DNA of 45,989 nucleotides from Candidatus Hodarchaeota archaeon. Lineage in GTDB: Archaea > Asgardarchaeota > Heimdallarchaeia > Hodarchaeales > Hodarchaeaceae. The stretch lies in assembly GCA_029856365.1 (NCBI GenBank), contig JAHQWW010000021.1:1-45989 (forward strand). Direction: 5' to 3'. Below, piece by piece: positions 6,871-37,042 of this stretch (positions are counted from its first letter, which is position 1; every line of letters starts with the position of its first letter). Made by a program: the position numbers and the translations under genes. The notes under the pieces are model-generated. The model worked only from the letters and a program-made list of their open reading frames with translations. It was not told the origin of the DNA and ran no database searches.

Positions 6871-9603
6871 TTAATCCACTTCCACAACGATATGGTGAAC
6901 AGCATCATCTTCTAGCTCTTCCAGATGTTTCCTTAAAATGAGAATATGGTTCTTAGTTCTTAAGAAATCAACTTTCTTTTGATTTAGAATTACGTTCTTG
7001 ATTGAGTAATCACCGAAATCTTTTCGATTTACATTCCTAAACGTGATTTGTATTTTCTTCGCTGCAAACTGTGTATTAATATAGGTGGTTCCATCATCTC
7101 TAAATTGAGAAGACAACAACATAGGGTCTAGTAAGAGATCGCCTAATTCTCCTCGTATTCCGAACGCTCTAGTCACTAGAGTGAGAATTAACCAACTAGC
7201 TGAACCAGTGAGATAGTGATACATCCCTCTTCCTTTCTGATTGATATATTCAGGGATCCCTGGGTAAATTTTTGACATGGGAAAATTGATACAATGACGA
7301 AATATGGTATCTAAGACTTGAAATCCTTCATGAGCCATTCTTCTCTTGTAGAGTGCATTAGCATACATAACAGCCATATGGGAGAACATAGCTCCATTTT
7401 CTTTATGTCCATATGCAAAACCAAAGCATCGACCCATTTTTGGCAATATTTCATGGAAATTGGTATTCAACCTTACTCCTCCAACATTTTCATCCCAAAG
7501 ATACTTTTTCACTGAAGAGATTACGTCTTTCACTTGGTCATCAGTTGCTATTCCACCCATCAAAGGAAAAACTTGACCTGTAAGAGTCATCCTTACCCCC
7601 TTAGGGTGATCTCCCTCTAGTCTCTTTCCATCATCATCATAATATCCGTTAAACCAACTGTAACCTTCTTTGTTTTTAATCCATTCCTCTGTGCGAATGT
7701 GGTTAACAATCCAGTTTCCTTTCCTTTCTAAATCTGAAATCACATCATCGATGTTAATTTTTTCCTTTTTCCCTGAGACCGTATGAGAACAGCTTTTGTA
7801 GAATCGATCAAGGATTTCTCGCTTTTGTTGGGGAGAAGAATAATCTATTGATTTATTTAATGTATCTAAAAGGATCTTTAGTTCGAGAGCAAGCTCAACA
7901 ACTTCTATTCCTCTTTTAAGCTTAAGAGCTTTCAAAAGATTAGCTAATTCTAAAAAATCACTTCCATAAAAAGCAGTAAAAGCAACTGTTTCACCTTTTT
8001 CTCTTGCCATATCGAGGCCATCATTCCAATCGGCACCTTCTAGTAGAATATTATTGTGCTTACCAACATTGAAAAACGACGAAAGATGTTGTATTAATAA
8101 ATGTTCAAGTATTGATCCCTTATATTTTAGTCCGTTTTCAGTGAAAAGTTTTGTTCCTTGATTTAGATTCCATTTCTGATCATGAGCCCTACAACGGTTT
8201 ATGTGTCTGTCTTTAAAATAGAATTGACCTTCTAAAAGGAATTCTAAATCTCCGCTTTGATCAATATATAATTTTATTGTCATAAATGGCCAAGTTCCAT
8301 GGTCACTCCAAGTTCGGGGAATATCATTCCTGTCAGCTTTAAATTCACCAAGTTCAGTTCCAATAATTGTTGCATTACTCCCATCAAATCTAATGCCTGC
8401 AAAATTGTTCAAGAGAATGTTTCGTACAGTTTTGGGTTCCATTAACAATAAGGCAAGACAATCTTGCCAAAGGTCTCTCCAACCTCGGCCTCCACGTCCA
8501 TAATCATGATGGGGGAGAAATGAACACCCAAAGATTCTTCTAAGAATTGGTTGTAATGTTACCCACTTCAACCATCTATCAAATATAGTGTCAGTTGTCT
8601 TAAAACTAAGACTAAGCTTTTCTTTCCAATAGTTTTTAGTTTCATTCAAGGTTTTCATAAATTTATTTTTAGAAAGGAAGACTAAATCCCTAGTAAAATC
8701 TTTATCCGTAGTGATACCAAGTACAATTCTGTATGATACTGTTGTTCCCTTTGAAAGAGAAATTGTATTGAACCTAAGCGCTCCAATCGATTCATATCCT
8801 TCAAGATATTGATCAGAAGTTAAAAAGTTTTGAGAATTACATACAATTGCCTTTGGCCAATCTAATGTTCCTCCTTCGCCGATAAAATCCTTAAGAAGAG
8901 GAAAAAATCCTAATGGAGAGCGATCTTCATTATCAACTCCAAAAATCCCATAAGAAACTTCATTTTTCTTATGACCACGCTCGTCAAAAGAAAACGTTGG
9001 TTCAACAGTAATTCCAAATTTACTTGTATAGATTCTATGTAATAAACTTGTTACATGTCTATGATCGCGTAAATTATCAGCGGATCTGCAAAATAATGGA
9101 ATTCCAGAGGTCGGAGTAATTACAAGCTCTTCTTCTCCGATATTTGTTATTTTTATTTCCATTAACTCTACTGTTCTGCCTTCTGACGGAATATAATTCA
9201 AGATTTCAGCTTGGATTCCATATTTATGGTTTTTCCTGATAACTCTGTGCCACAGAAACCCAGCTTCTAGCTTTACTGTTTCCTCATTATCATTAATGAA
9301 TTTTAAATTTCTTTGATAAGATGAGTTTCCGGAAACTGACCAAACTCCCTTATTTTCTATAAAAAGCCAGAAATTACGATTATTTTTAGCATTATGTAAA
9401 TCTTCAATCGAAACTGGAGTAAGAAGATAGTTATTGTGCCCGATTTTGATATCACCATGTAATTCAGGCGTAATTGAAGACATCATTCCCGTTTCATTTA
9501 CTAATGGAAAATAGAGGTGATTTATTCTGTCAGGGAAATCTAACTGGAAATCTCCATCTTCATTGATAAAATTCCACTCCGTAATGCCATATCTCTTCTT
9601 CAT
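6871..9603 (-). CDS. GH94 glycoside phosphorylase, laminaribiose phosphorylase-like
   Basis: 910 aa with LYFPLVNE.GMMS.ITP.LHG, RSADNLRDHRHVTSLLHR, DYGRGGRGWRDLWQD, catalytic ADWNDG and HKENGAMFSHM. This matches my recollection of Paenibacillus laminaribiose phosphorylase rather than cellobiose phosphorylase. No signal peptide. Confidence 0.88.
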   Translation of the reverse strand: MKKRYGITEWNFINEDGDFQLDFPDRINHLYFPLVNETGMMSSITPELHGDIKIGHNNYLLTPVSIEDLHNAKNNRNFWLFIENKGVWSVSGNSSYQRNLKFINDNEETVKLEAGFLWHRVIRKNHKYGIQAEILNYIPSEGRTVELMEIKITNIGEEELVITPTSGIPLFCRSADNLRDHRHVTSLLHRIYTSKFGITVEPTFSFDERGHKKNEVSYGIFGVDNEDRSPLGFFPLLKDFIGEGGTLDWPKAIVCNSQNFLTSDQYLEGYESIGALRFNTISLSKGTTVSYRIVLGITTDKDFTRDLVFLSKNKFMKTLNETKNYWKEKLSLSFKTTDTIFDRWLKWVTLQPILRRIFGCSFLPHHDYGRGGRGWRDLWQDCLALLLMEPKTVRNILLNNFAGIRFDGSNATIIGTELGEFKADRNDIPRTWSDHGTWPFMTIKLYIDQSGDLEFLLEGQFYFKDRHINRCRAHDQKWNLNQGTKLFTENGLKYKGSILEHLLIQHLSSFFNVGKHNNILLEGADWNDGLDMAREKGETVAFTAFYGSDFLELANLLKALKLKRGIEVVELALELKILLDTLNKSIDYSSPQQKREILDRFYKSCSHTVSGKKEKINIDDVISDLERKGNWIVNHIRTEEWIKNKEGYSWFNGYYDDDGKRLEGDHPKGVRMTLTGQVFPLMGGIATDDQVKDVISSVKKYLWDENVGGVRLNTNFHEILPKMGRCFGFAYGHKENGAMFSHMAVMYANALYKRRMAHEGFQVLDTIFRHCINFPMSKIYPGIPEYINQKGRGMYHYLTGSASWLILTLVTRAFGIRGELGDLLLDPMLLSSQFRDDGTTYINTQFAAKKIQITFRNVNRKDFGDYSIKNVILNQKKVDFLRTKNHILILRKHLEELEDDAVHHIVVEVD

Positions 9604-9771
9604 ATTCCATCACAGATCATTTTCAGTCTGTTTTATCATTTCATCTTTCTTTTAACCCTACCATAAAATACTAGTGTTAGATTGGAAAAATGATTAGAAA
9701 ATTGAGTCATCCAATCTTGAAACTAAAGTTTCTTTTCACATATATATTATCTAAAAAAAGGAAGAACACCA

Positions 9772-10200
9772 ATGAATATTCCTAAGGATCTTTTAGAAAT
9801 AAAAGAATATTCAGAAGAGGGTTACAAACCCGTAATTGATTATGGGGCGTGGCGAGTAGCGATCTTAAATTTCATTGACGAACTATTGCCAGAAAACATT
9901 GACTTTATGAGTAAACATGATGAAACAGATGAAGTATTTATATTGTTGAAGGGTAATTGTATTCTCTTTATAGCTGAAGGAAACGAAAGTAAAATTACGA
10001 AGTTGTATGCAGAAGACATGGTTCCTTATAAAATATACAATGTCAAAAGAGGAGTCTGGCATAACCACACATTAAGTCATGATGCGATGATTTTAATTGT
10101 AGAAAATCAAGATACGACTGAATCAAATTCCCCTGTTATAGAACTGACAGAAAAACAGCAAAATGAGATCGTTGATTTGACCACTCGTTTATGGAGTTAA
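9772..10200 (+). CDS. Cupin-fold protein (ureidoglycolate lyase-like / conserved hypothetical)
   Basis: H..TDEVFILLKG and YNVKRGVWHNH cupin-type His/Glu motifs; divergent from the GH94 gene. Confidence 0.65.
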   Translation: MNIPKDLLEIKEYSEEGYKPVIDYGAWRVAILNFIDELLPENIDFMSKHDETDEVFILLKGNCILFIAEGNESKITKLYAEDMVPYKIYNVKRGVWHNHTLSHDAMILIVENQDTTESNSPVIELTEKQQNEIVDLTTRLWS

Positions 10201-10277
10201 TTTTTCTAATAACTAGGGAATTAAGGCTTTACTACAAATATCCCTTGACAGATTGAATATTGATTGTGTGTTTGAGG

Positions 10278-11282
10278 ATGAAAAGTAAATCAAAAAAACC
10301 TTTAACGATCACCGAGATCCAACAGATTATTGAAGCATCATTTGGCACTACTAAACTTGGGTTAGTCATGGAACTCACAGATGGGTGGTTTAATACTGCT
10401 TACTCAATCGAAATACCTGATCTTGGCCAAGAGGTCGTAATGAAAGTTGCACCTCCATCTGAAGTTAAAATATTAACATATGAAAAGAATATAATGAAAA
10501 CAGAAGTTCAGGTAAATAAAATTCTGAAAGAGAAAACAGATGTACCAGTACCAGAAATATTAAGCTATAATTTTAACCAAGATATAATAAATCGAGACTA
10601 TTTTATTATGGAAAAGTTAAAAGGTATTCCTTGGAATAAAATTAAAAGCAAACTTAGCCAAAAGCAGAATGATCATTTGAAATATAAAACGGGTGTTTAT
10701 GCAGCACAAATTAATTCAATAATTGGAAACTATTTTGGTTATTTCACTGATTTAAAGAAGTCTTACAATAAAAGCTGGAAAAATACATTTGTAAATATGA
10801 TTAAAAACGTTCTAGATGATGGAATTGAATTAAACGCTAAGATTCCCCAATCCCCCAAAGACATAATGAAGTTAATTGAGAACAATGCTACTGTTTTAGA
10901 AGATGTAAAAGTACCTCAGTTAGTTCACTGGGATTTATGGGAAGGAAATATCTTTATTATTAAACAGGAGCAAGAAAAGTGTTCTATTGAAGGAATAATT
11001 GATTGTGAACGAGCCCTCTGGGGTGATCCACTCATAGAATATGAATTTATGCATGCACCAAGTAATCAAGCTTTTCTTGAAGGTTTTGAAGCTGGAACTA
11101 AAGAAAAATTTGAATTTACGAATGATTTAGAGCAACGAAGGCAATTATATAATGTCTACCTCTTTCTGATAATAATTATTGAAGTAAATAGTAGAGGATA
11201 TTATGGAAATGAAGCTACGAAAATAATACAATGGGCAAATTTTGAGTTACAGAACAATATCTCTCATCTTGAGAAGAAGTAA
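10278..11282 (+). CDS. Aminoglycoside phosphotransferase (APH)/choline kinase-like phosphotransferase
   Basis: GWFN loop, VVMKVAP, LVHWDLWEGNI (Brenner motif) and GIIDCERALWGDP. ATG 10278 is preferred over TTG 10260. Confidence 0.88.
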   Translation: MKSKSKKPLTITEIQQIIEASFGTTKLGLVMELTDGWFNTAYSIEIPDLGQEVVMKVAPPSEVKILTYEKNIMKTEVQVNKILKEKTDVPVPEILSYNFNQDIINRDYFIMEKLKGIPWNKIKSKLSQKQNDHLKYKTGVYAAQINSIIGNYFGYFTDLKKSYNKSWKNTFVNMIKNVLDDGIELNAKIPQSPKDIMKLIENNATVLEDVKVPQLVHWDLWEGNIFIIKQEQEKCSIEGIIDCERALWGDPLIEYEFMHAPSNQAFLEGFEAGTKEKFEFTNDLEQRRQLYNVYLFLIIIIEVNSRGYYGNEATKIIQWANFELQNNISHLEKK

Positions 11283-11305: not shown

Positions 11306-12391
11306 TTAAGCAGGAATTCCAGCCTGAAGAACGCTTAGAGTTGTATTATCTAGCCTTTCTTCTTTTGAATAGTTAGGATTGTCTTGATATTTTTCAGTAA
11401 AATCATAAATACCAAAATCCATGTTTTTATAACTCCAATAAGTATAAGAGATCTGATGTTTCTGAAAAATTGATATTACGTCAGTAAGCCAGTTCTTTCG
11501 GGTTTCTGGGTCCGCTTTTGCCACGCAGCCGAACTCTCCACATAAAATTGGGACATTATACTTCTCTTTAAAAGCTAAGACGGGAGTAATTGCCTTTTCA
11601 AGTTCTGATTTATTCCATTCTACATCCTGTCTCTCAAAAAATAAAGCAAATTGTGGGGAAACCTTGGCAACCTCCTCTTTTACGCTTTTTAAACCTTCAG
11701 GCCTTCCTGGATATTTTAAATACTTTCTATAAATATTATTATAAACAAAGGGAACCCATTCAGCCATCTGATGAGTGATTACATGTGGTTCATAAAAATG
11801 AAAGCTGTAAATAATTTTTTCATCATTAAATTTCCTCATACTCTTAAAAGTGGAGGCCTGTCCCCAAAGATTTGATTCCACGATGATATAATTTTTTAGA
11901 TCATTATTTCTGATTATTGGAATAGTTTCCTCCACTAACTTATACCAATCGGAGTCCTCTGAAGCTATTGGTTCATTCATAATATCATACATAATATTAT
12001 TTGTGGTTTGATATCTTTTAGAAAACATCTCCCAAATCTTTAGAAATCTTTCACGATTCTCTGAGTCTTTATCCCAAAGGTCATTGTTCTCGCTTTCTCT
12101 AACATCGAAAGTATGGCCTGGGGCTTTATGTAAATCTAAAATAAGAACAATATCTCTTTTCTGAGTCCATTTTACAACTTTATCAATTAGTTTTAATCTA
12201 TCTTCTAAATAGCGATATGGATTTTCATCTTTTTCAAAGAAAAAATAATCAACGGGTAGTCTAACAACATTAAATCCCCACTCTTTAATGATTTTTATAT
12301 CATTCACTGTTATAAATGTATTCAGATGTTCTTCACTGAATTCTTCCACTTGAGAAAAATAACCACCGATATTCACACCTTGCAAGTACAT
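11306..12391 (-). CDS. GH5 glycoside hydrolase, Clostridium CelC-like intracellular endoglucanase/lichenase
   Basis: GVNIGGYFSQ...EEH..TFIT..DI, VRLPVDY, LDLHKAPG, acid/base NEP, YSFHFYEP and nucleophile CGEFG. No signal peptide. Confidence 0.88.
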   Translation of the reverse strand: MYLQGVNIGGYFSQVEEFSEEHLNTFITVNDIKIIKEWGFNVVRLPVDYFFFEKDENPYRYLEDRLKLIDKVVKWTQKRDIVLILDLHKAPGHTFDVRESENNDLWDKDSENRERFLKIWEMFSKRYQTTNNIMYDIMNEPIASEDSDWYKLVEETIPIIRNNDLKNYIIVESNLWGQASTFKSMRKFNDEKIIYSFHFYEPHVITHQMAEWVPFVYNNIYRKYLKYPGRPEGLKSVKEEVAKVSPQFALFFERQDVEWNKSELEKAITPVLAFKEKYNVPILCGEFGCVAKADPETRKNWLTDVISIFQKHQISYTYWSYKNMDFGIYDFTEKYQDNPNYSKEERLDNTTLSVLQAGIPA

Positions 12392-12544
12392 GAAAATATC
12401 TCCTTATGTAGATATAACTCATTAGTCCTTCAAATTAAGTTTTTTATAAATTAAAATACTTGCTTAATACAATATTGTTTCTTCTTTGTAATATATTTTT
12501 TATTTCAGTTCATTTTGGAGATAAAAAATAAGGATATTACTAAT

Positions 12545-13964
12545 ATGCCGAATTCTATTCTATTTCCAAACGATTTTCTCTTCGGAGTTGCAACTAGCTC
12601 CTTTCAAGTTGAAGGAGCCTGGAATAAAGATGGGAAAGGAGAATCCATTTGGGATAAAATTTGCCATACACCTGGAATAATTGAAAATGGTGTTACGGGT
12701 AATGTTTCCTGTGACCATTATTCCCGTTATTCTGCTGATATCAAATTAATGAAAGAACTTGGCGTTAATGCTTACCGTTTTTCAATTTCATGGCCTCGTA
12801 TCTTCCCTACAGGAGAAAGCGAAACTAATTCCAAAGGTATAAAATTCTACGATCGTCTTATTGATGAGTTAATTATGAATGAGATTACTCCATTTGCTAC
12901 CCTTTATCACTGGGATTTACCTTTAAAGCTTTACACCGATCACGAAGGATGGCAGAGCGAAAAAGTTGTTGAGGCTTTTGTAGCATATGCTAATTATGTC
13001 TTTAAACAGTTTGGTGATCGTATTAAACATTGGATTACTTTCAATGAACTTCAAGTCTTTGTAGCTCATCATCCCAATACTGAGGAGTTTAAAAAAAACC
13101 TTTGGAATTGACAAAGGGGAATTAGAAAGGAGAAGTGATGCGATTGTAGAACTACAGAACGTGTATAAAGCCCATGCTCAGACAATCCAAGCTTATCGAG
13201 ATTTAGATTATTCAGATGGAGGAAAGATTGGAATAGTTATCAATCTTCTACCAGTTTATCCTATATCAGAACACCCAAGTGATCAATCGTTGGTTCACAT
13301 TGTCGATTCTGAAGCAAATAGGTTATATTTGGAGCCAGTACTATTGGGATCTTATCCTAGTGATTTAATTGAAAATTATGAGCAGATGTTTAAAATCTCA
13401 TTCCCAGAAGGTGATACAGCATTGTTAAAATCCGTGCTTCCATTGGATTTTCTTGGAATAAATTATTACACTAGGTTACGAATTGGTTTTAATAATCCAG
13501 AAGAGATAACTGATGACGCTTCATTTGTGAAAAAGCTCCAAGCTAGAGAGATTCAAGTTAATCCTCCTCAGGAAGGGATAGAATATTCTGAAATGAACTG
13601 GGAAATTTATCCTGATGGCCTGTATGATATTTTGAAGAGAGTGGACGAAGAATACAACCATCCTGAAATATACATAACAGAGAATGGCATGGCAGCCAAA
13701 GATGATAAAATAATTGATAATTTAGTGTACGATACCGATAGAGTGGATTATTTACAACAGCATTTTATACAAGCAAATAAAGCTATCAAGGCAGGAGTAA
13801 ATCTCAAAGGATTCTTTATTTGGAGTCTTTTGGACAACTTCGAGTGGTTTCATGGTTATAGTAAACGATTTGGTATAATTCGTGTGGATTTTAACACTCA
13901 AGAACGTATTTGGAAGAAAAGTGCCCATTGGTATCAGCAGGTAATCGAAAATAGAGGATTCTAA
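12545..13964 (+). pseudogene. GH1 beta-glucosidase split by a single +1 frameshift at an A8 run (13091-13098)
   Basis: 5' ORF has FLFGVATSSFQVEG, DHY, YRFSISWPR, TLYHWDLP and TFNE. 3' ORF has DFLGINYY, YITENG, WSLLDNFEW and RFGI. Removing one A joins them as ...EEFKKTFGIDKGELERRSDAIVELQNVYKAHA... Confidence 0.85.
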
Positions 13965-17234: not shown

Positions 17235-17445
17235 AATGTATCAAATATACATATTTTTGTAATTTTCTATTTAAAAGTATCTTTAGGGGCAAGTTATCTC
17301 TTTAGAATAGGGAATTGTTATTAATATTAATAGAATTTTAAAAAAATATTAAAATTAAAAAGCTCTTGGTTTTAGAAATTCAAATACACTACTTCTAAAT
17401 ATAAATGAACAAATCTACTTTGCTATTAAAGAAGGAAACATCATA

Positions 17446-22587: not shown

Positions 22588-22588
22588 T

Positions 22589-24656: not shown

Positions 24657-26954
24657 TTGACCAATATAAAGTCTCTAATGTTACAGCTAACTTTAGAAGA
24701 GAAAGCAGCCCTGTGTACTGGCTTAGGCCCATGGCAAACTGTCGATGTGGAACGACTTGGAATTCCCAGAATTACTATGAGTGATGGTCCTCATGGAGTA
24801 CGGAAAGTGAAAAACATAGAAGATTTTGGCTTAGCTGAGAGTATTCCTGCAACATGTTATCCTCCCGCGGCGGCTTTAGCAGCAACATGGAACAGAGAGC
24901 TAATACAGAAGGTGGGTGAACATTTAGGAGACGAATGTATTTCTCTAGATGTGGATGTATTACTCGGCCCAGGAGTCAACATAAAACGAACACCTTTGTG
25001 TGGACGGAATTTTGAATATTATTCAGAGGATCCCTATCTAGCAGGAGTACTAGGAGCTATTTTCGTAAAAGGTGTTCAGAGTAAGGGTGTTGGTACCTCG
25101 TTAAAACATTACACAGCTAATAATCAAGAATATCAAAGGTTCACCATCAGCGCAGAAATTGATACCCGAACGTTAAAAGAAATTTATTTACCAGCTTTTG
25201 AGAAAGTTGTAAAAGAATCCCAACCATGGACCGTTATGTGTGCTTATAACAAAATTAATGGGATTTTTGCTTCCGAACATTATGATCTTTTAACTAGAAT
25301 ATTGAGATCCGAATGGAACTTTGAGGGATTTGTTGTTTCTGATTGGGGAGCGGTTCATAATCGTGTTGATGCACTCAAAGGAGGATTGGATCTTCAAATG
25401 CCTGGTCCCAACGATAGAGATGTCCAAAAGGTCATTGAGGCCGTTAGGAATAATACACTTGATGAGAAAGTTTTGAATCAAGCTGTTGAACGTCTTTTGA
25501 AAATCATTTTTCAGGCTAAAGAAATTAAAAAAGGCCATTTTGAATTTGATAAAGAAAAACATCATGCATTCGCTCGTAAAGTAGCAACAGAAGGTATCAT
25601 CTTACTTAAGAATGAAAATAATCTTTTGCCAATAAAAAACGTATCTTCAATCGCCATAATCGGAGGGATGGCAAAAGAACCTCGCTTCCAAGGTGGAGGT
25701 AGCTCTTTAATCAATCCAACAAAAATCGATATTCCTTTCGATGAAATTGAGAAAATATTAGGGGAAAATGTCCACCTTGAATATGCTGCCGGTTACGCTA
25801 AAGATAGTGGTGATAAAACATTAATCAATGAAGCTTGTGATGTAGCTAAGCAGGCAGATGTTGTAATATTATTTTCTGGCTTACCTTTCGAACATGAATC
25901 CGAGGGATTTGATCGAAAAACCATTGATTTGCCTGAAAGCCATATTGAACTGATAAAAGCAGCGACAAACGTAAATCCTAAAACCATTCTTGTCTTAAGC
26001 AATGGTTCTGCGATTAATATGCATCAATGGATTAATGACGTTCCAGCAGTTCTTGAAACCTATTTACTTGGCCAGGCAGGTGGAGGAGCAATCTCTGATG
26101 TCTTGTTTGGCAAAGAAAACCCTTCTGGAAAGTTAACAGAAACTTTCCCAGTAAGATTAGAACATAATCCCGCTTATTTGAACTATCCTGGAGAGGCTGG
26201 AAAAGTAAGATATGGAGAGGGTCTCTATGTTGGTTACCGATATTATGATAAAAAAGAAATCGAACCTATCTTTCCTTTTGGATTTGGATTAAGCTATACT
26301 ACTTTCTCTTACTCAAATTTAACAGTTTCCAAGAAAACATTCAAAGACATTGAGGGCGTAACCGTAAATGTTGATATAACTAATACAGGAGAAGTTCCTG
26401 GAAAAGAAATTGTGCAATTGTACATCCACCAATCTAATCCTAAAGTCGACCGACCATTCAAAGAGCTAAAAGGGTTTAGTAAAGTAGAATTACAGCCTAA
26501 TGAAACAAAGACAGCTACGTTCTACTTAGATTCTCGCTCTTTTGCTTATTATAGTGTTAATTATAATTCTTGGATTTGGGAAGCAGGAGAATATGACATT
26601 TTAATTGGGGCATCATCTAAAGATATTCGATTAAATACTACTGTAACGTTGGAATCTACACAAGAATTATCCAGCATCTTAAACATGGACTCTACAATAC
26701 GTGATTGGATTAATGATCCAAAAGGAAAACCCATTATCGATGAAATTATGACTCAGCGAGTTAACTATATAAAATCGCATAATCCTGATTTAGAAATTGA
26801 TGAAGAACAGATGAAAGAAGAACTTCTAAGCTCAGCTATTGACTTACCCTTATTACGAGTATTCAAATTTGCTGAAAATCTTCTTCCTATGCCTGCAGAG
26901 GATCTTGTTAAACTCTTCTTAACTCGAGTAGGGGTTAACAATGAAGAAAAATGA
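24657..26954 (+). CDS. GH3 beta-glucosidase (BglB/BglX-like, Fn3 C-terminal domain)
   Basis: SDGPHG, GRNFEYYSEDP, LKHY, nucleophile VVSDWG, ESEGFDR, GEGLYVGYRYYD and PFGFGLSYTTF. No signal peptide. Confidence 0.95.
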   Translation: MTNIKSLMLQLTLEEKAALCTGLGPWQTVDVERLGIPRITMSDGPHGVRKVKNIEDFGLAESIPATCYPPAAALAATWNRELIQKVGEHLGDECISLDVDVLLGPGVNIKRTPLCGRNFEYYSEDPYLAGVLGAIFVKGVQSKGVGTSLKHYTANNQEYQRFTISAEIDTRTLKEIYLPAFEKVVKESQPWTVMCAYNKINGIFASEHYDLLTRILRSEWNFEGFVVSDWGAVHNRVDALKGGLDLQMPGPNDRDVQKVIEAVRNNTLDEKVLNQAVERLLKIIFQAKEIKKGHFEFDKEKHHAFARKVATEGIILLKNENNLLPIKNVSSIAIIGGMAKEPRFQGGGSSLINPTKIDIPFDEIEKILGENVHLEYAAGYAKDSGDKTLINEACDVAKQADVVILFSGLPFEHESEGFDRKTIDLPESHIELIKAATNVNPKTILVLSNGSAINMHQWINDVPAVLETYLLGQAGGGAISDVLFGKENPSGKLTETFPVRLEHNPAYLNYPGEAGKVRYGEGLYVGYRYYDKKEIEPIFPFGFGLSYTTFSYSNLTVSKKTFKDIEGVTVNVDITNTGEVPGKEIVQLYIHQSNPKVDRPFKELKGFSKVELQPNETKTATFYLDSRSFAYYSVNYNSWIWEAGEYDILIGASSKDIRLNTTVTLESTQELSSILNMDSTIRDWINDPKGKPIIDEIMTQRVNYIKSHNPDLEIDEEQMKEELLSSAIDLPLLRVFKFAENLLPMPAEDLVKLFLTRVGVNNEEK

Positions 26955-28057: not shown

Positions 28058-29407
28058 TTAAATTTTTGTATATGTTTTAATAATATCGATGATCGCGGGC
28101 CATTGGTCACAATTCTCTAAAAGAAAAGACTCTGGATAAGTCATCAGTTCCTCAGCGGGGATTTTTTGAAAGATATCATTGTAGCGATTACAGAAAACTA
28201 GTTGGTTGTTTGCTAATAGGCGGAAGTTGAGCTTCCGCTGGAGATTCTTCGGTAAATGGACCAAATTCAAATCTTTCAACACATTATTCAAAATTAGATA
28301 TTTTTCGAACTCTTCTTCAAATTTCCATTCTCCTGACGCAAAGGTTGAAAATTTCATCCATTGAGAATCAGTTTTTGGATGGATACATCCCATGCTTCGA
28401 GCATCTTTGTAAGTCCAAATAGACCAGGATATATCATGTTTTTCTAACACTGCAATTGTGTCACGCAGCAATGATTCGTGTATTTTGCGATCGCCTTTTT
28501 TTAAGGAAATTCCTGTTTCACCACACCATAGAGGACGTTTTAATTCATTTTTAACGAAATTAATTTCACCATCCCCAAAAATGGCCCTTTCAATTTGATT
28601 TATCTGTTCTTCTCTTCTCTTTTCTTGGTTTATTTCTAAATTGTCAGTGAATATCCAGGGATAATAATGAAATGAATAGGCAACATTTGGATCGTCATAG
28701 GGGGTGTATTCTCTAAAGAAATGCGCATAAAAATCTCCTTCAATAAAGAAAACATGATTTCTATCTACTTTTCGTAATTCTTGTACTAAATCATGATAGA
28801 AATTATCAACAATCTTCCCTTTAGGTTCGTAATAGCATGGTTCGTTCATTAAATCATATGCTGCGACCCATGGATTAGTACTATAATGACTCCCAATATA
28901 TTTCCATAATTGGATGACCCTTTTCTGAAATTCCTTATGTTCCCAAAAAAGAGCCTCACCTGTTGTATTATCTGAATGCCAATCTGGATTTTGGCCACCT
29001 GGTGCAGCGTGAAGGTCTAAAATTGCATATATTTTGTATTTCTCACATAATTTCAGGATACGATCTAACTGTTGAAAACCGTTTGGATTATATGAATAAG
29101 GGGTGAGGTCAGATTCAAAAAGACGATAATTATATGAGAGCCTAATGGAATTAACACCAATTGCATTAAGGAACTGAAAATCTCTTTCATTGATATAGCA
29201 CATATAGTACTTTTCCCAGAATTCACTGGCTTTTTTTGGCCCATAAGCATGTTCAAGGGCTCCCCTTAATTGGGATTCTGATCCAGGAAGGCCAATCATG
29301 AAGTGTTCTATATTCAACCAGTTTCCAACCCCAAATCCTCTAAATGTAATCTTTTTTCCATTTATAACAAAATTTGAGCCATCTACTCTAATAAAGGTAG
29401 AATCCAT
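28058..29407 (-). CDS. GH5 glycoside hydrolase (GH5_22-like; exo-beta-glycosidase/xylosidase-type)
   Basis: GNWLNIEHFMIG, LDLHAAPGGQNPDWHSDN, acid/base MNEP, YSFHYY, nucleophile WCGETG and WTYKD. No signal peptide. Confidence 0.85.
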   Translation of the reverse strand: MDSTFIRVDGSNFVINGKKITFRGFGVGNWLNIEHFMIGLPGSESQLRGALEHAYGPKKASEFWEKYYMCYINERDFQFLNAIGVNSIRLSYNYRLFESDLTPYSYNPNGFQQLDRILKLCEKYKIYAILDLHAAPGGQNPDWHSDNTTGEALFWEHKEFQKRVIQLWKYIGSHYSTNPWVAAYDLMNEPCYYEPKGKIVDNFYHDLVQELRKVDRNHVFFIEGDFYAHFFREYTPYDDPNVAYSFHYYPWIFTDNLEINQEKRREEQINQIERAIFGDGEINFVKNELKRPLWCGETGISLKKGDRKIHESLLRDTIAVLEKHDISWSIWTYKDARSMGCIHPKTDSQWMKFSTFASGEWKFEEEFEKYLILNNVLKDLNLVHLPKNLQRKLNFRLLANNQLVFCNRYNDIFQKIPAEELMTYPESFLLENCDQWPAIIDIIKTYTKI

Positions 29408-32999: not shown

Positions 33000-35900
33000 C
33001 TATTTTGAATCGAATTTCACTAATATTGAACTAATTTTACCTAATCTAATCATCGAGGCATATGGTTCATTAATAACGTTTCCTGTAATGGAGATACTTT
33101 TTTCTTCTGTAATATTCAACTGAATTTCACTTATTTTTGTCTTATCATCGTAAGTATCCAGCATAAGGGGATTGTAATAAACAATCTTGCAATTCCCGAG
33201 GAATTGAAAGCTTATAAAACCTTCAGAATCAAATAACCAACTTGGTAATATTGGATTGAATTTTAAACACAACTTATTATTTTTAAATACGAATGGATGC
33301 TTTCCAACCATCATTAAAAGCCATATGTTTAGAAATTCAGCGGTTGCACCACTTAGTCTTGCATAAAATCCTGTACCATGTAGATTTTCATCAGTAAAAG
33401 CGCTACTTACAATAAACGACGAATTTTCAGCTAAATTTCTTCCATATACTTCAGCATCCTGAAAAGGAATGGCAACATTCTGGAAATCAAGGAAAAATTC
33501 TTCATAGAGACCTGCTTTAAGTAATTCAAGTAAGAACTTGTATTCCATATGAAGCCAGATTGACTCGTTTTCTAACCAACCAGGAGAGAAAGCTTTGGCT
33601 CTCCCAATATCAACGGGCTGCTTTGCAAGTGATTCGTTTAATTTATACATCTTTAACTTCTGATCAAAAAGATTACTATCTCTTACTTGCCTCCAAATTT
33701 CTCTAGCATCATCTTTATTGTGTTGTATTTTTAATGCTCTCACGAAACCTTCTAAAAACAGTGGTAGTGGAATTGGTTCAAATTTTTTCACTCTTACGTT
33801 TGGACATCCGGTTTCATGAATTTTTTCATTACCATGTTCATCAAACAGGATTTCAAATTTCTCTGCTTCATAGTAAAAGTAAGTTGGATATTTGTGATTA
33901 TTTATTTCCAGTGCCCGAGACAAGCCCCCCTCTATTTTTTGCAAAAAACGTTCTAGGATTTCCCTCACTATCTTAATTGCAATTTCTTTTTCTTCACCTA
34001 TGATTCCGAACTTTGTTCTCTTTCTGTAGCTTTCCCTTTCTGTTGAGACTAGATCCCAATAAGTAAAATGATTATTTTCTGATGAAAAATAATCATTTAA
34101 ATGGATTAATATAGCCTCAAGAAAATCGTAAACTTCCACTGGGACTTTAATAGACTTGTGAATCTTATTCTCTAAAGAAATCAACATAAATTTGATTATT
34201 CTTATTAGTTCATAAGTTTCAGGCATGGAGGAGCCAAAAATTCCTGGTAATCCATTCAATGCATCATACCAGCCTGGCTTATCTGCTTCCATTTCAATAC
34301 CCATCCCATATGGATCCAAAGTAGTAAATTTGACCAATACGAGGCAAAATAACTTAGAGAACAAATTTGTTTTATAGATGGAGCCAGTACCATTTTCTAT
34401 TCTTACTAAATTCTGGAGGTTATCTCTAGAATTTATTAACTCCTCTTTTTGCTTATCAATTGCTACTGAACCTAACTGTCTTATTTTCCCTTCAATTATT
34501 ACATATTTGTCTTCTCTTGGCCGAACCATGGCTGGATTGTCATAAAAAGTGAATATTTTCTTCTCAAAAAGTATTTCATCTTTTTTGTCAGGATAAATTG
34601 AAAGATAATCTTCTATAAGATCTAAGTTGTATGTCCAATGATCCACCCAATAACCTTCTCCATATGAAGCTTCAAAGATTTGATCGGAGTTTGCTAAAAC
34701 TGTAATCAAAAAATTACTAGGAGAAACCTGTAGGTTTATTTCGTGTTCTTTCACAAACTTAAGTAAACTCCCTGGAGTAAATGGCTTTTTAAAGAAATCT
34801 TTAATTGTACTCCTATCAATCACAAGATTCAAAATCTCTGATAAATTATTATTTTCAAGTTTGAAGCTCGAACCATTAAGCACTAATGGATTATAGCCAT
34901 CTAATTGAATTAAATTCATAAATGTAAATATATTAAAATACTGGACATCAGGGAGAATATGCACATCGCATCTTCGATTTTGATTTACATCTCGGTAATT
35001 TCCATTCCCTTGTGAGAAGAAATTGTTTTCTAAATAGAACCAATTATAATCTCGTTCAAGATCCCCGTGTTTTCGAAAGTATAGGTGAAATACAATAGGT
35101 GAATCTATTCTGTTTATTATCATTGGATAACCTCCCCGTAAAACGTTGTCCAAATAATTTTGTTGGCAATATATGTCGAATAATTTGGAAGATGTTTTTG
35201 TTTTTACTTTCTTGATTATTGAATCGATTATTTCTTCATTTTCATTTTCTTTAATACTAATATATTCTTTGTTAACAATTCTGTGTTTTTGACTGTTTAA
35301 CCAATTGATATCATTCACTTGTCCAATAATAGAGAAAATTTCCACTTTTTTTTTCGGATCTATGTTTAATTCAGTAATAAAAAGACCACAGGGGATTTTA
35401 TTAGTAGTGATTTGTTTTTTCTTAAGCAATTCTCCAGTTGGAAATTTTAAAAACGCATCAGGGTGAGATAAAGATGTATTTCTGCCAAAAACTCTCTCTT
35501 GATCAACAATAGGCTCCAGTAATCTACAATCTTCCTTTTCTTGAATAAAAGATAGGGAAAAATGTCCTGTTTTTATTTTCTCAACTTTTGTTTCATCTCC
35601 TATCCTTGAACTTACTTTATAGAAAGGGATTCTTTCGTTCATATTAGTGGTTTCAATCCACCCAATCCCAGTGTAAATCATATTTTTGAGAACTCCATGA
35701 TTAATCCCGAATGGAACCACAATTGGCAACCCGTCAAGTAGTGAAAACTTTATAGGAGATGATGAAACGTTTTCAATAGTTAATTTCCGAATTAATCCCC
35801 CAAAATCTTCATTTGGTATGGTAAAATATAATACATTAGTTTTCAAGCCGTGTTCTTTAGAAATTTCTTCAATCCCTAAACTATAATGATTTATTATCAT

Positions 35901-36227
35901 TCGTTCAATTTTATCGAATTTTCGATGATTTACAGAAAAAGGCTCATAATAATGGAACTTGTTCTCATCCTTAATCTTCAAAAAGGTCCTAAATCCAGTA
36001 TAAGGTACAGTTTGGTAGGACTTATTAGCAGGGTGAAATTCCATTATGGAGCTATTTTTATCTCTAAGCCCAAAACTTGCAATTCCTTGCCCCCTATTAA
36101 CATAGAAAACCCATAAGGGTATCCCCATTGAACCAGCAATCCCTGGTAAAAAACTAGCAAAAGGTTTCGAATTATTATAGTTCTCTATAATAAATCTATT
36201 CTTTTCATCGTAATAGTAATCACTCAA
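33000..36227 (-). CDS. GH161-type beta-1,3-glucan phosphorylase
   Basis: 1075 aa with KPFASFLPGIAG..GIPLWVFYVNRGQ, RKHGDLERDYN, QGNGNYRDVNQNRR, catalytic KPGWYDALNGLPG and GWLENESIWLHMEYK. The KPGWxDA loop fits GH161 rather than GH149 (RPEWNDAN). No signal peptide. Confidence 0.85.
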   Translation of the reverse strand: MSDYYYDEKNRFIIENYNNSKPFASFLPGIAGSMGIPLWVFYVNRGQGIASFGLRDKNSSIMEFHPANKSYQTVPYTGFRTFLKIKDENKFHYYEPFSVNHRKFDKIERMIINHYSLGIEEISKEHGLKTNVLYFTIPNEDFGGLIRKLTIENVSSSPIKFSLLDGLPIVVPFGINHGVLKNMIYTGIGWIETTNMNERIPFYKVSSRIGDETKVEKIKTGHFSLSFIQEKEDCRLLEPIVDQERVFGRNTSLSHPDAFLKFPTGELLKKKQITTNKIPCGLFITELNIDPKKKVEIFSIIGQVNDINWLNSQKHRIVNKEYISIKENENEEIIDSIIKKVKTKTSSKLFDIYCQQNYLDNVLRGGYPMIINRIDSPIVFHLYFRKHGDLERDYNWFYLENNFFSQGNGNYRDVNQNRRCDVHILPDVQYFNIFTFMNLIQLDGYNPLVLNGSSFKLENNNLSEILNLVIDRSTIKDFFKKPFTPGSLLKFVKEHEINLQVSPSNFLITVLANSDQIFEASYGEGYWVDHWTYNLDLIEDYLSIYPDKKDEILFEKKIFTFYDNPAMVRPREDKYVIIEGKIRQLGSVAIDKQKEELINSRDNLQNLVRIENGTGSIYKTNLFSKLFCLVLVKFTTLDPYGMGIEMEADKPGWYDALNGLPGIFGSSMPETYELIRIIKFMLISLENKIHKSIKVPVEVYDFLEAILIHLNDYFSSENNHFTYWDLVSTERESYRKRTKFGIIGEEKEIAIKIVREILERFLQKIEGGLSRALEINNHKYPTYFYYEAEKFEILFDEHGNEKIHETGCPNVRVKKFEPIPLPLFLEGFVRALKIQHNKDDAREIWRQVRDSNLFDQKLKMYKLNESLAKQPVDIGRAKAFSPGWLENESIWLHMEYKFLLELLKAGLYEEFFLDFQNVAIPFQDAEVYGRNLAENSSFIVSSAFTDENLHGTGFYARLSGATAEFLNIWLLMMVGKHPFVFKNNKLCLKFNPILPSWLFDSEGFISFQFLGNCKIVYYNPLMLDTYDDKTKISEIQLNITEEKSISITGNVINEPYASMIRLGKISSILVKFDSK

Positions 36228-36241
36228 TACCTGGCCTATCC

Positions 36242-37042
36242 TTATATATTATTTATTAATCGTAGAAGAAATTCTTTTACTCCTTCACCGTTTGGATGAT
36301 CTAAAATTCCTGATGAGAGATCCTTTAATCTCTTTGGGGATGATGGAAAAGTCCAAGACTCATTGGCAACCTCTGCGCAATGAATGTCATTTTCAGAATC
36401 ACCAATAAAGATCACTTTAAGATGTTGGAATTCCTGATGGAAGAACTCGTTCAGAAAGTCGGGTAGAAACAAACACTTCTTGACAAAGGGGGGAGAAATT
36501 TCTAGATATGTTTCATGGGAAGCACTAATCTGAATAAGATTAGATAATTTTCTGCATATATGTTCACGGAACCTTTTGATCTTCAATTTTTCATCAATTA
36601 ACAAAATCTTTATACATCTATCCGCAAATTCATTACTCCAAGGCACAGGTGTAATACCAGTTACTTTGGCTTCCCTTTCAACACCCGCGGAGAAATCGGA
36701 TACAGCCCAAAAGTTTGTTCCATAATATGTTGTGATGATATTAAAAGAAGATAGCTCTTCATTGATTTTATCAACGGTTTCACGTGGAAAATGAATGACT
36801 CTATCAAATTTTGTCCAAGTTGTAAGATGAAGAGCCGCTCCATTCAAGGAAATAGTAGGCACAAAATTAAAATAATCCTTTAAAACAAATTCAACGCCTA
36901 GGGGATGTCGTGCTGTCGCAATTAGAACGCGAGATTCATTAATATATTCTTCTAAAAGGATCATAAGATCAATGTTTGGTTTTTCACCAGTTTTAATCAA
37001 AGTACCATCCATATCTAATACTAATATGAAGTAATCAGTCAT
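36242..37042 (-). CDS. Cof-type HAD-IIB hydrolase (sugar-phosphate phosphatase/mutase candidate)
   Basis: DMDGT (motif I), ATAR (II), YLEI.P..V.K (III) and GDSEND (IV). Confidence 0.88.
   Translation of the reverse strand: MTDYFILVLDMDGTLIKTGEKPNIDLMILLEEYINESRVLIATARHPLGVEFVLKDYFNFVPTISLNGAALHLTTWTKFDRVIHFPRETVDKINEELSSFNIITTYYGTNFWAVSDFSAGVEREAKVTGITPVPWSNEFADRCIKILLIDEKLKIKRFREHICRKLSNLIQISASHETYLEISPPFVKKCLFLPDFLNEFFHQEFQHLKVIFIGDSENDIHCAEVANESWTFPSSPKRLKDLSSGILDHPNGEGVKEFLLRLINNI

What the first reader, a model, noticed from the sequence alone, without database searches (positions are those of the whole stretch)
6871..37042. Candidate archaeal phosphorolytic beta-1,3-glucan (laminarin) system: GH161 + GH94 laminaribiose phosphorylase + GH5 x2 + GH3 + GH1
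Seen: six to seven glycoside-active genes within 30 kb, none with a signal peptide, and with catalytic motifs intact (GH161 KPGWYD, GH94 ADWND, GH5 NEP/GEFG and NEP/GETG, GH3 SDW, GH1 NE/ENG). Known: GH161 phosphorolyses beta-1,3-glucans to alpha-Glc-1-P and shorter oligomers, and GH94 laminaribiose phosphorylase finishes the disaccharide. The pair is described from Gram-positive bacteria, and GH161 also occurs in heterokont algae. CelC-type GH5 cleaves mixed-linkage glucans. Inference: this is a complete ATP-saving cytoplasmic route for algal laminarin/lichenan oligomers in an archaeon, probably Asgard-like. I know of no characterisation of this route in archaea. Because both phosphorylases are reversible and no secreted glucanase or solute-binding protein is present in the window, the pair could instead build and mobilise an intracellular beta-1,3-glucan store.
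Basis: partly seen in the sequence, partly recalled or inferred. Interest (0 to 1): 0.8.

Follow-up and report, generated by a model that had tools for sequence, protein, structure and literature searches.

The report
Laminarin phosphorolysis genes in Asgard archaeon
A Heimdall-type Asgard archaeon carries a bacterial-style enzyme set that splits imported beta-1,3-glucan (laminarin) fragments with phosphate; the enzymes are ordinary members of known families acquired from bacteria, and I found no published report of this route in these archaea.

Summary
The 1075-aa protein is a true GH161 (E 4.5e-256 to PDB 9QQK). The 910-aa protein is a true GH94 laminaribiose phosphorylase (1161 bits to PsLBP 6GGY; at most 59 bits to cellobiose phosphorylases). 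Two GH5, a GH3 and a GH1 are also there, none with an N-terminal hydrophobic segment. One correction: the GH1 is frameshifted at an A8 run in this assembly.

The contig is archaeal. It is colinear over its whole length with the closed Heimdallarchaeota chromosome CP070695.1.

The pair is rare in Asgard: GH161 in 6 and LBP in 5 of 399 genomes, nearly all in one genus. The Asgard GH161 copies form one clade inside the bacterial radiation. The gene set (GH161, LBP, CelC-like GH5, a small cupin, GH3, GH1) matches contiguous Anaerolineae operons, so it is most likely an acquired operon that has since been dispersed.

Elsewhere the genome encodes a membrane-anchored GH16 laminarinase and part of a beta-glycan locus. 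In the closed relative that locus holds a complete Opp-type ABC importer. This favours breakdown over storage.

Verdict: a new (archaeal) member of the known GH161/GH94 system. Two earlier first-reader notes of this scan, not followed up, describe the same system on related Asgard DNA.

The parts
6871..9603 (-). GH94 laminaribiose phosphorylase (LBP), 910 aa
   Evidence: 1161.6 bits over its full length to PsLBP 6GGY; next best PDB hits are at most 79 bits, and cellobiose phosphorylases at most 59. ADWND at residue 524. Orthologues at 81-93% in G007, G009 and G011.
9772..10200 (+). 142-aa cupin of unknown function (CA_C3497-like), co-inherited with LBP/GH161
   Evidence: No Pfam family. Homologues at 44-62% identity lie within 10 kb of GH161 in 14 of 31 Chloroflexota loci and in no other bacterial phylum retrieved. 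Invariant residues include H49, D53, E54, H97 and E111. AlphaFold model pLDDT 90.4; best PDB fold match 3D0J, TM 0.88.
10260..11282 (+). APH / fructosamine-kinase-like protein; role uncertain
   Evidence: Pfam APH 51 bits. No PDB sequence match. Conserved next to the cupin in G009 (83%) and G011 (70%). Absent from bacterial GH161 loci.
11306..12391 (-). GH5, CelC-like cytoplasmic beta-glucanase, 361 aa
   Evidence: 240.3 bits to C. thermocellum CelC 1CEC. NEP at 139 and GEFG at 285. Homologues at 32-35% inside Anaerolineae GH161 operons L046, L093 and L094.
12515..13964 (+). GH1 beta-glucosidase, interrupted by a +1 frameshift at the A8 run 13091-13098
   Evidence: Two ORFs cover Pfam GH1 positions 4-173 and 197-452 of 453. 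Frames and the intact G009 orthologue are shown.
22589..23596 (-). GHL10/DUF4015-like putative TIM-barrel glycosidase, divergent from GH3; function unknown
   Evidence: Weak Pfam DUF4015/GHL13, below cut-off. The nearest ESM Atlas clusters carry DUF4015 or GHL10 in a minority of members and are mostly bacterial, the best ones Chloroflexota. Kept beside GH3 in G009 and G011 at 67%.
24657..26954 (+). GH3 beta-glucosidase, 765 aa
   Evidence: Pfam GH3 N and C domains plus Fn3-like. SDW at 228. 54-56% identical to the GH3 of Anaerolineaceae GH161 operons L093 and L094.
28058..29407 (-). GH5, second type (GE32-like), 449 aa
   Evidence: Pfam Cellulase. 201.7 bits to PDB 9KU5. NEP at 188 and GETG at 296. 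Lies within 6 kb of GH161 in G009, G011 and G015.
33000..36227 (-). GH161 beta-1,3-glucan (oligosaccharide) phosphorylase, 1075 aa
   Evidence: E 4.5e-256 to 9QQK and 2e-255 to 9H8V over the full length; only 79.6 bits to GH149 6HQ6. KPGWYD at 650. One Asgard clade inside the bacterial GH161 tree.
36242..37042 (-). Cof-type HAD-IIB hydrolase, 14 bp upstream of GH161; an Asgard-specific neighbour, role uncertain
   Evidence: Pfam Hydrolase_3. NCBIfam HAD-IIB above cut-off, Cof subfamily below it. Adjacent to GH161 in G009 and G011, with a partial match in G015. No homologue in any of the 77 bacterial loci.
37119..40883 (-). 1254-aa MacB/FtsX permease fused to an Opp-type ABC ATPase, upstream of HAD-GH161; membership in the system uncertain
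   Evidence: Pfam MacB_PCD, FtsX x2, ABC_tran and oligo_HPY. Kept upstream of GH161 in G009, G011 and G015. Its ATPase part is 71% identical to the OppD-like ATPase of G009's beta-glycan importer locus.

Best explanation
The window is a chromosomal region of a Heimdall-type Asgard archaeon. It holds the cytoplasmic half of a beta-1,3-glucan (laminarin-type) breakdown route.

Proposed steps:
1. Outside the cell, a membrane-anchored GH16 laminarinase (encoded on contig C53) cuts the polymer.
2. The oligosaccharides are imported, probably by the Opp/Dpp-type ABC system seen in the relative's beta-glycan locus.
3. In the cytoplasm, GH161 removes glucose units as alpha-glucose-1-phosphate from oligomers of three or more residues.
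4. The GH94 laminaribiose phosphorylase splits the remaining disaccharide into glucose-1-phosphate and glucose.
5. GH3, GH1 (broken in this assembly) and the two GH5 enzymes deal with branches and mixed-linkage pieces.
6. Phosphoglucomutase-family enzymes feed glucose-1-phosphate into glycolysis.

Shown here: family membership, archaeal location, co-inheritance, bacterial origin, and the presence of the GH16 and PGM-family genes in this genome and of the importer in a relative. Inferred: substrates, direction of the reactions, which transporter is used, and co-regulation.

The gene set was most likely acquired once as an operon from a Chloroflexota (Anaerolineae)-like bacterium by an ancestor within this genus. 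It was then spread over about 30 kb by insertions and rearrangements.
For: Family identity:
- GH161 matches 9QQK at E 4.5e-256.
- LBP scores 1161 bits to 6GGY, against at most 59 bits to cellobiose phosphorylases.
- The catalytic-region motifs are identical to those of the solved enzymes.

Archaeal location:
- About 29 of the 40 window ORFs are colinear, at 67-90% amino-acid identity, with the closed chromosome CP070695.1 (G009).
- Ribosomal protein S28e is present in G000.

Distribution:
- GH161 is in 6 of 399 Asgard genomes and LBP in 5 of 399. Five and four of these, respectively, are in one genus.

Origin:
- The five Asgard GH161 sequences form one clade (SH-aLRT 100) among bacterial sequences.
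- A tree holding Asgard together with Chloroflexota/Gemmatimonadota is not rejected and has a slightly higher likelihood (p-AU 0.63, +6.6 lnL).
- 27 of 31 Chloroflexota GH161 loci carry LBP within 10 kb, and 14 of 31 carry the cupin. L093/L094 read GH161-LBP-GH5-cupin-GH3 and L020 reads GH161-LBP-GH3-cupin-GH1, all on one strand.
- Gene G+C (31-37%) matches the genome (35%), so the transfer is not recent.

Catabolic context:
- The GH16 on C53 scores 281.8 bits to laminarinase 3ILN and has an N-terminal hydrophobic anchor.
- G009 has one locus (4.2636-4.296 Mb) with an Opp-type binding protein, two permeases, two ATPases, GH3, cellobiose phosphorylase, GH2, GH130 and GH16. Most of its genes recur in pieces on G000 contigs C4, C30, C25, C164, C28 and C53.
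- G000 has four PGM-family genes.

Known biochemistry: PapP (GH161) needs a degree of polymerisation of at least 3 and leaves laminaribiose, which GH94 or beta-glucosidases finish (PMC6484121).
Against: - No enzyme was assayed, and substrate specificity within GH161 is not uniform. A Thermosipho member uses glucose as acceptor (abstract of bioRxiv 10.1101/2025.04.05.647330, listed).
- The genes are scattered on both strands among unrelated genes, not in one operon, so co-regulation is unproven.
- No sugar importer lies in the window. The importer is assigned by context in a relative only. Two of its four permease and ATPase genes have only paralog-level matches (32-40%) in G000, and the best match of a third is the window's own fusion protein.
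- GH1 is frameshifted in this assembly.
- G015 has GH161 but no LBP.
- The donor phylum is not resolved by the free GH161 tree. It places the Asgard clade in an unresolved polytomy on the Bacillota-rich side.
- I named the AU-test group after seeing that tree.
Confidence: 0.8

Rival explanations
1. The mechanism is the same, but the natural substrate is not algal laminarin. It is another beta-glucan available in sediment: mixed-linkage beta-1,3/1,4-glucan, fungal or bacterial beta-1,3-glucan (curdlan, callose, cell-wall glucan), or their oligomers released by other microbes.
For: - The CelC-like GH5 and the GH16, whose second-best PDB match is a beta-1,3(4)-glucanase, fit mixed-linkage glucans.
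- The genome also has a true cellobiose phosphorylase, a further GH94, GH130 and GH2, so it looks like a general beta-glycan scavenger.
- PapP accepts beta-linked disaccharides of any regiochemistry as acceptors.
Against: - The best GH16 match is a laminarinase (3ILN).
- LBP and GH161 are both beta-1,3-specific in the characterised members.
- The sample's habitat is not known to me.
Confidence: 0.25
2. GH161 and LBP run in the synthetic direction or both ways. They build and mobilise an intracellular beta-1,3-glucan store, or a glucan that the adjacent ABC exporters secrete.
For: - Both phosphorylases are reversible in vitro (abstract).
- GH161 sits directly downstream of a Cof-type HAD, a MacB/FtsX-ATPase fusion and an ABC-2 transporter, which is an exporter-type architecture. 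This arrangement is conserved in G009, G011 and G015 and absent from all 77 bacterial loci.
Against: - The genome has an extracellular GH16 laminarinase, and relatives have an Opp-type importer in the same locus as GH16.
- The gene set is that of bacterial catabolic operons.
- I did not search for a dedicated glucan synthase or primer system.
- From general knowledge: cellular Pi/Glc1P ratios normally favour phosphorolysis.
Confidence: 0.06
3. This is a CAZyme-rich but functionally unconnected stretch. The genes were acquired separately and are neighbours only because this chromosomal region accumulates transferred genes.
For: - The genes lie on both strands, separated by unrelated genes (AKRs, peptidase M1, GNAT, methyltransferase).
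- There is no synteny for the region in five GH161-lacking genomes of the genus.
- G007 has LBP (93%) and GH161 (60%) in different contexts and on different contigs.
Against: - The same six families, including an otherwise obscure cupin, form single operons in Anaerolineae.
- LBP and GH161 co-occur in 4 of the 5 genus genomes that have either.
- The roughly 30-kb spacing is kept in G009.
Confidence: 0.1
4. The contig is a bacterial contaminant binned into an archaeal MAG.
For: - The MAG has 4.2% estimated contamination.
- The window carries no informational genes or tRNAs.
- All CAZymes have bacterial nearest relatives outside the genus.
Against: - The whole window is colinear with a closed 4.94-Mb Heimdallarchaeota chromosome.
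- GH161 is also on a second closed chromosome, CP070760.1.
- G+C matches the MAG.
- A neighbouring gene has a weak Heimdall-CTERM match, 18.1 bits, below the cut-off.
Confidence: 0.01

Closest known systems
GH161-GH94 beta-1,3-gluco-oligosaccharide phosphorolysis loci of bacteria (PapP of Paenibacillus polymyxa; LBP of Paenibacillus sp. YM-1 and Acholeplasma laidlawii; Kuhaudomlarp et al. 2019, PMC6484121)
   Same: Same two enzyme families, with full-length similarity. Same accessory families (GH1, GH3, GH16). Enzymes predicted to be cytoplasmic. Same proposed sequential logic: GH161 down to the disaccharide, then GH94 or a beta-glucosidase.
   Different: The host is an Asgard archaeon. The paper does not contain the word archaea. 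GH161 and LBP are 26 kb apart rather than in tandem. There is no CUT1-type sugar ABC transporter beside them. GH161 has Asgard-specific upstream neighbours (Cof-type HAD, MacB/FtsX-ATPase fusion).
Uncharacterised Anaerolineae (Chloroflexota) operons: GH161-LBP-GH5-cupin-GH3 (loci L093, L094) and GH161-LBP-GH3-cupin-GH1 (L020)
   Same: The same six gene families, including the 142-aa cupin (44-62% identity), which was seen only in Chloroflexota among the bacterial loci. GH3 is 54-56% identical, LBP 51-55% and GH161 43-51%.
   Different: There the genes are contiguous and co-directional. Here they are dispersed on both strands over 30 kb. The window's second GH5 (GE32-like), HAD, kinase and GHL protein have no close counterpart in those operons.
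GH149 beta-1,3-glucan phosphorylase systems (Pro_7066, PDB 6HQ6; Euglena EgP1)
   Same: Same clan (GH-Q) and the same reaction on beta-1,3-glucans.
   Different: Only 79.6 bits to 6HQ6 and 118 bits against an NCBIfam GH149 cut-off of 1150. This is not a GH149 member.
Clostridium thermocellum CelC (GH5, PDB 1CEC)
   Same: The window's 361-aa GH5 scores 240 bits to CelC over residues 3-333, has no signal peptide, and keeps both catalytic Glu motifs. From my own knowledge: the celC operon of C. thermocellum is induced by laminaribiose and contains a GH16 LicA.
   Different: It is a distant homologue, not an orthologue, and no activity data exist.
Opp/Dpp-type oligosaccharide ABC importers of Thermotoga and Pyrococcus (own knowledge)
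   Same: The beta-glycan locus of relative G009 has an SBP_bac_5 binding protein, two permeases and two ATPases between GH94, GH3 and GH16 genes.
   Different: Ligand untested. In G000 only the binding protein (C4) and pieces of a permease are assembled. The locus is not in the window.

Membership tests
GH161 (beta-1,3-glucan phosphorylase) | Full-length sequence similarity to characterised or solved GH161 members, clearly above the sister families GH149 and GH94 | tested here: met
   855.7 bits (E 4.5e-256) to 9QQK over residues 10-1070; 79.6 bits to GH149 6HQ6. Nested in a tree of 82 GH161 sequences.
GH161 (beta-1,3-glucan phosphorylase) | Conserved catalytic aspartate region shared across clan GH-Q (PMC6484121) | tested here: met
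   KPGWYDALNG is identical to the 9QQK and 9H8V sequences in the HMMER alignment and sits at residue 650. That this Asp is the catalytic one is my reading of the alignment; I did not check it against a structure.
GH161 (beta-1,3-glucan phosphorylase) | Phosphorolysis of beta-1,3-gluco-oligosaccharides (DP 3 or more for PapP), giving alpha-Glc-1-P | not testable with these tools
   Needs a recombinant enzyme assay.
GH94, laminaribiose phosphorylase subgroup | Full-length similarity to characterised LBP, far above cellobiose, chitobiose and cellodextrin phosphorylases | tested here: met
   1161.6 bits to 6GGY over residues 8-908. Cellobiose phosphorylases score at most 58.7 bits and chitobiose phosphorylase 22 bits. 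The genome's real cellobiose phosphorylase is a different gene, on C30, at 1124 bits to 3QDE.
GH94, laminaribiose phosphorylase subgroup | Catalytic Asp motif (ADWND) | tested here: met
   LEGADWNDGLD is identical to PsLBP in the alignment and sits at residue 524.
GH94, laminaribiose phosphorylase subgroup | Activity on laminaribiose plus Pi | not testable with these tools
   Needs an assay.
Sequential GH161 + GH94 system (Kuhaudomlarp 2019) | Both genes in one genome and inherited together | tested here: met
   They co-occur in G000, G007, G009 and G011. The same roughly 30-kb spacing is kept in G009. G015 has GH161 only.
Sequential GH161 + GH94 system (Kuhaudomlarp 2019) | Tandem or same-operon arrangement with a sugar ABC transporter | tested here: not met
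   The two genes are 26 kb apart with unrelated genes between them. The window has no CUT1 or Opp binding protein. The candidate importer is in another locus.
GH5 (CelC-like) | Clan GH-A (beta/alpha)8 domain with NEP acid/base and a second catalytic Glu | tested here: met
   Pfam Cellulase 154 bits. 240 bits to 1CEC. NEP at 139 and GEFG at 285.
GH1 beta-glucosidase | One uninterrupted reading frame with NEP and ENG catalytic motifs | tested here: not met
   Frameshift at the A8 run 13091-13098, and NEL in place of NEP. The G009 orthologue is intact. This may be an assembly error or a pseudogene.
Asgard (Heimdall-type) archaeal chromosome | Contig colinear with a closed chromosome of the lineage; archaeal markers in the MAG | tested here: met
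   Colinearity with CP070695.1. S28e in G000, with controls positive only in archaea. No rRNA gene is assembled.

The most novel reading that the evidence does not exclude
In these Asgard archaea the acquired GH161 has been rewired into a lineage-specific operon. The operon holds a Cof-type HAD hydrolase and a 1254-aa MacB/FtsX permease fused to an Opp-type ATPase, preceded by an ABC-2 transporter. In this reading the fusion protein is a new kind of oligosaccharide transporter coupled to GH161. It would either import laminari-oligosaccharides or export beta-1,3-gluco-oligomers that GH161 makes from Glc-1-P. The arrangement is conserved in G009, G011 and G015 and absent from all 77 bacterial GH161 loci examined.
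Probability: 0.1. Interest if true: 0.7.

Novelty: new member of a known kind. Interest (0 to 1): 0.35.

Why it matters
It adds a phosphorolytic (ATP-saving) laminarin-type beta-glucan route to the predicted diet of Heimdall-type Asgard archaea, which include the closest known relatives of eukaryotes. It also gives a clear case of a whole bacterial catabolic operon being taken up and then scattered in an Asgard chromosome.

Public records name these proteins 'cellobiose phosphorylase' or a generic GH36-type domain protein, so metabolic reconstructions would miss the route.

It does not change what is known about the enzymes themselves. The small cupin that travels with GH161/LBP in Chloroflexota and Asgard genomes, and the HAD and MacB-fusion neighbours of GH161, are the parts with unexplained function.

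Tried and rejected
- SSU rRNA models found nothing in the MAG, and the window has no tRNA. Taxonomy was therefore settled by synteny with closed relatives and by S28e.
- SBP_bac_8 (CUT1-type sugar binding protein) gave one hit in G000. It proved to be an SBP_bac_6 system with a fused double permease and a TOBE ATPase, so not an obvious sugar importer. I dropped it.
- DNA searches of the window against five GH161-lacking genomes of the genus found only scattered paralog-level matches and no syntenic block. I could not define insertion boundaries.
- The 245-aa protein downstream of GH161 has homologues in GH161-lacking genomes and none in bacterial loci. I rejected it as a system component.
- I considered the Cof-type HAD as an HAD-type alpha-phosphoglucomutase. 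There is no support: only 45.8 bits to a Thermotoga phosphatase, and four ordinary PGM-family genes exist.
- The kinase-like protein has no PDB match and only a negligible NCBIfam hit (17 bits against a cut-off of 319).
- Donor resolution from LBP failed.

Full report
**What is in the window.**
The window is the whole of contig C167 (45,989 bp, 33.8% G+C). It belongs to a 4.24-Mb MAG of 204 contigs, 83.6% complete, with 4.2% estimated contamination.

Pfam, NCBIfam and PDB sequence searches give the following genes:
- 6871-9603(-): GH94. It scores 1161.6 bits over residues 8-908 to the laminaribiose phosphorylase PsLBP (6GGY). Cellobiose phosphorylases reach at most 58.7 bits.
- 33000-36227(-): no Pfam family, but E 4.5e-256 and 2e-255 over the full length to the GH161 structures 9QQK and 9H8V. 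It scores only 79.6 bits to GH149.
- 11306-12391(-): GH5, closest to C. thermocellum CelC (240 bits).
- 28058-29407(-): a second GH5, closest to 9KU5 'GE32' (202 bits).
- 24657-26954(+): GH3.
- 12515-13964(+): GH1, in two ORFs.

None of these proteins has an N-terminal hydrophobic segment.

There is one correction. The GH1 is cut by a +1 frameshift in an A8 run (13091-13098), and it reads NEL where its intact orthologue in a relative reads NEP.

**Is it archaeal?**
No rRNA gene is assembled, and the window has no informational genes. Three results settle the question:
- About 29 of the 40 window ORFs are colinear at 67-90% amino-acid identity with positions 3.654-3.712 Mb of G009, a single-contig genome of the same genus. 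Its public record is CP070695.1, 'Candidatus Heimdallarchaeota archaeon isolate bin6 chromosome'.
- GH161 is also on a second closed chromosome, CP070760.1.
- G000 encodes ribosomal protein S28e, which the controls find only in archaea.

Contamination is thus excluded for practical purposes. Earlier notes of this scan call the genome Hodarchaeales-type. I did not test the order.

**Distribution and origin.**
GH161 occurs in 6 of 399 Asgard genomes and LBP in 5 of 399. Five and four of these are in the window's genus, counting G000. The remaining genome, G083, holds both on contigs of 2-3 kb at only 42-48% identity. That is either a separate acquisition or a binning error.

Outside the genus, the best GH161 matches are bacterial at 53% identity or less (Defluviitalea, Anaerolineae, Chengkuizengella). 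The best LBP matches outside Asgard are 60% or less.

In a maximum-likelihood tree of 82 GH161 sequences, the five Asgard copies form one clade (SH-aLRT 100) inside the bacterial radiation. A tree that holds them together with Chloroflexota/Gemmatimonadota is not rejected, and it has a slightly higher likelihood than the free quick search (p-AU 0.63). I chose that group after seeing the first tree.

Gene content gives the stronger donor signal:
- Among 77 bacterial GH161 loci with 10-kb flanks, LBP lies nearby in 27 of 31 Chloroflexota loci but only 5 of 33 Bacillota loci.
- A homologue of the window's 142-aa protein (9772-10200) lies nearby in 14 of 31 Chloroflexota loci and in no other phylum.
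- Loci L093/L094 read GH161-LBP-GH5(CelC-like)-cupin-GH3. L020 reads GH161-LBP-GH3-cupin-GH1.

The window therefore holds the same six families as an Anaerolineae operon, spread over 30 kb on both strands. Gene G+C (31-37%) equals that of the host. GH161 copies within the genus have diverged to 56-73% identity. The acquisition is therefore old, within this genus. Five GH161-lacking genomes of the genus show no syntenic counterpart of the region.

**Breakdown or storage?**
Such genes exist elsewhere in the genome.

Contig C53 carries a GH130 and a 314-aa GH16. The GH16 scores 281.8 bits to the Rhodothermus laminarinase 3ILN. It begins with a basic and hydrophobic segment followed by a Ser/Thr/Pro-rich linker.

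In the closed relative G009, the GH16 lies in one locus at 4.2636-4.296 Mb. That locus contains:
- an Opp/Dpp-type ABC importer (a 708-aa SBP_bac_5 protein, two permeases, two ATPases);
- a GH3;
- a true cellobiose phosphorylase and a further GH94;
- GH2 and GH130.

Most genes of this locus recur in pieces on G000 contigs C4, C30, C25, C164, C28 and C53. The importer is the exception. Only its binding protein and pieces of one permease are found in G000. In G011 and G007 these genes lie within 17-35 kb of GH161 or LBP.

G000 also has four phosphoglucomutase-family genes, one of them beside the GH94 on C164.

Together with the published behaviour of PapP, this supports the catabolic model. PapP needs a degree of polymerisation of at least 3 and leaves the disaccharide for GH94 or beta-glucosidases (PMC6484121). 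The model has four steps:
1. A surface GH16 cuts the polymer.
2. An Opp-type system imports the fragments.
3. GH161 and then LBP carry out phosphorolysis in the cytoplasm.
4. Hydrolases trim branches and mixed linkages.

The steps from import onward are inferred from family membership and context, not shown.

**Parts that are not explained.**
- *The 142-aa protein.* It is a cupin with invariant residues that include H49, D53, E54, H97 and E111. Its confident model (pLDDT 90.4) matches only a structural-genomics protein of unknown function, 3D0J (TM 0.88).
- *The genes upstream of GH161.* GH161 is preceded, 14 bp away, by a Cof-type HAD-IIB hydrolase. Upstream of that lie a 1254-aa MacB/FtsX permease fused to an Opp-type ATPase, and then an ABC-2 transporter. 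This block is kept in G009, G011 and G015, differs in G007, and has no counterpart in the bacterial loci. The fusion's ATPase is 71% identical to the OppD-like ATPase of G009's beta-glycan importer.
- *Two further conserved neighbours.* An APH-type kinase-like gene and a GHL10/DUF4015-like protein are conserved beside these genes, with no assignable role.

These parts carry the only real chance of something new here.

**Comparison with what is known, and novelty.**
The system is a member of the GH161/GH94 sequential phosphorolysis scheme proposed for bacteria in 2019 (PMC6484121). That paper does not mention archaea. Full-text searches pairing Asgard or Heimdallarchaeota terms with laminaribiose phosphorylase, laminarin, GH94, GH16 or GH161 found no description of it.

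Public annotations name the Asgard LBP 'cellobiose phosphorylase'.

Two earlier first-reader notes of this scan describe the same system on related Asgard DNA: e1-5541699 and e1-5455253. Neither was followed up. They agree with my results, but they are not independent evidence.

I rate it a new (archaeal) member of a known kind, of moderate interest.

**Limits.**
- Nothing was assayed.
- The trees used quick or FastTree searches.

Noticed in passing
window 37119-40883 (-): A 1254-aa single frame joins MacB_PCD and two FtsX permease modules to an ABC ATPase with an oligo_HPY (Opp-type) tail. The ATPase part (37122-38099) is 71% identical to the OppD-like ATPase of the Opp-type importer in G009's beta-glycan locus (G009 4267956-4268939). 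This fits a duplication of that ATPase fused to a MacB-type permease. The gene sits upstream of HAD-GH161 in four genomes.
   Followed up: partly
window 9772-10200 (+); L024:13949-14365, L020:12044-12460, L093/L094 near 16980-17390: A small cupin of unknown function (best fold match PDB 3D0J, CA_C3497). It travels with GH161/LBP operons in Chloroflexota (14 of 31 loci) and sits beside LBP in the Asgard genomes. Invariant residues include H49, D53, E54, H97 and E111, which could form a metal site (my reading). It may be an uncharacterised component of beta-1,3-glucan oligosaccharide catabolism.
   Followed up: partly
window 13091-13098: An A8 homopolymer causes a +1 frameshift in the GH1 gene. 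The G009 orthologue has AAGAAAA there and is intact. The acid/base motif is also NEL here against NEP in G009. This is either a pseudogene or a homopolymer assembly error.
   Followed up: yes
window 19501-20109 (+): A CBM96/DNRLRE-domain protein with a C-terminal hydrophobic segment (from residue 182). It has a weak match, below cut-off (18.1 bits against 24), to the NCBIfam Heimdall-CTERM sorting domain. It is probably a surface carbohydrate-binding protein. A homologue (58%) lies next to the MacB fusion and GH161 in G015.
   Followed up: partly
G000 contigs C53, C30, C164, C4, C25, C28; G009:C1:4263572-4296000 (L130-L132): A second beta-glycan utilisation locus. It holds an Opp-type ABC importer, GH3, a true cellobiose phosphorylase (1124 bits to 3QDE), a further GH94 (554 bits to cellobiose phosphorylase), GH2, GH130 and an anchored GH16 laminarinase. 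It is contiguous in G009 and broken into six small contigs in G000.
   Followed up: partly
G000:C164:6419-8563 (L112): A 714-aa protein with a PGM_PMM_I domain lies directly after the 798-aa GH94 paralogue. The same pairing occurs in G011 (C20, about 82.3-84.8 kb). This is a phosphorylase-phosphomutase pair of unknown sugar specificity.
   Followed up: no
G007:C14:389513-392239 (L007) and G007:C41:40050-43283 (L004): G007's LBP is 93% identical to the window's but sits in a different context, with no cupin or kinase within 1.5 kb. Its GH161 is only 60% identical and is flanked directly by the PEMT homologue, without the HAD and ABC block. The discordant identities suggest gene flow or recombination within the genus.
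   Followed up: partly
G083:C360 and C9 (L133, L115, L116); L054 (QMWS01000084.1, 'Thermoprotei archaeon B83_G16'): Two further nominally archaeal occurrences of GH161 on very short contigs. G083 is from another Asgard family; its GH161 and LBP are adjacent at 42-48% identity to the window's. L054 is a Thermoprotei MAG contig whose GH161 groups with Caloramator and Fervidobacterium. Each is either an independent transfer or a mis-binned bacterial contig.
   Followed up: no
window 10260-11282 (+): An APH / fructosamine-kinase-like protein lies between the cupin and the CelC-like GH5 and is conserved in G009 and G011. It has no PDB match and only a negligible NCBIfam hit. From my own knowledge: APH-fold anomeric sugar kinases accompany other disaccharide phosphorylases (for example NahK), so a sugar-kinase role is a lead only.
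   Followed up: partly
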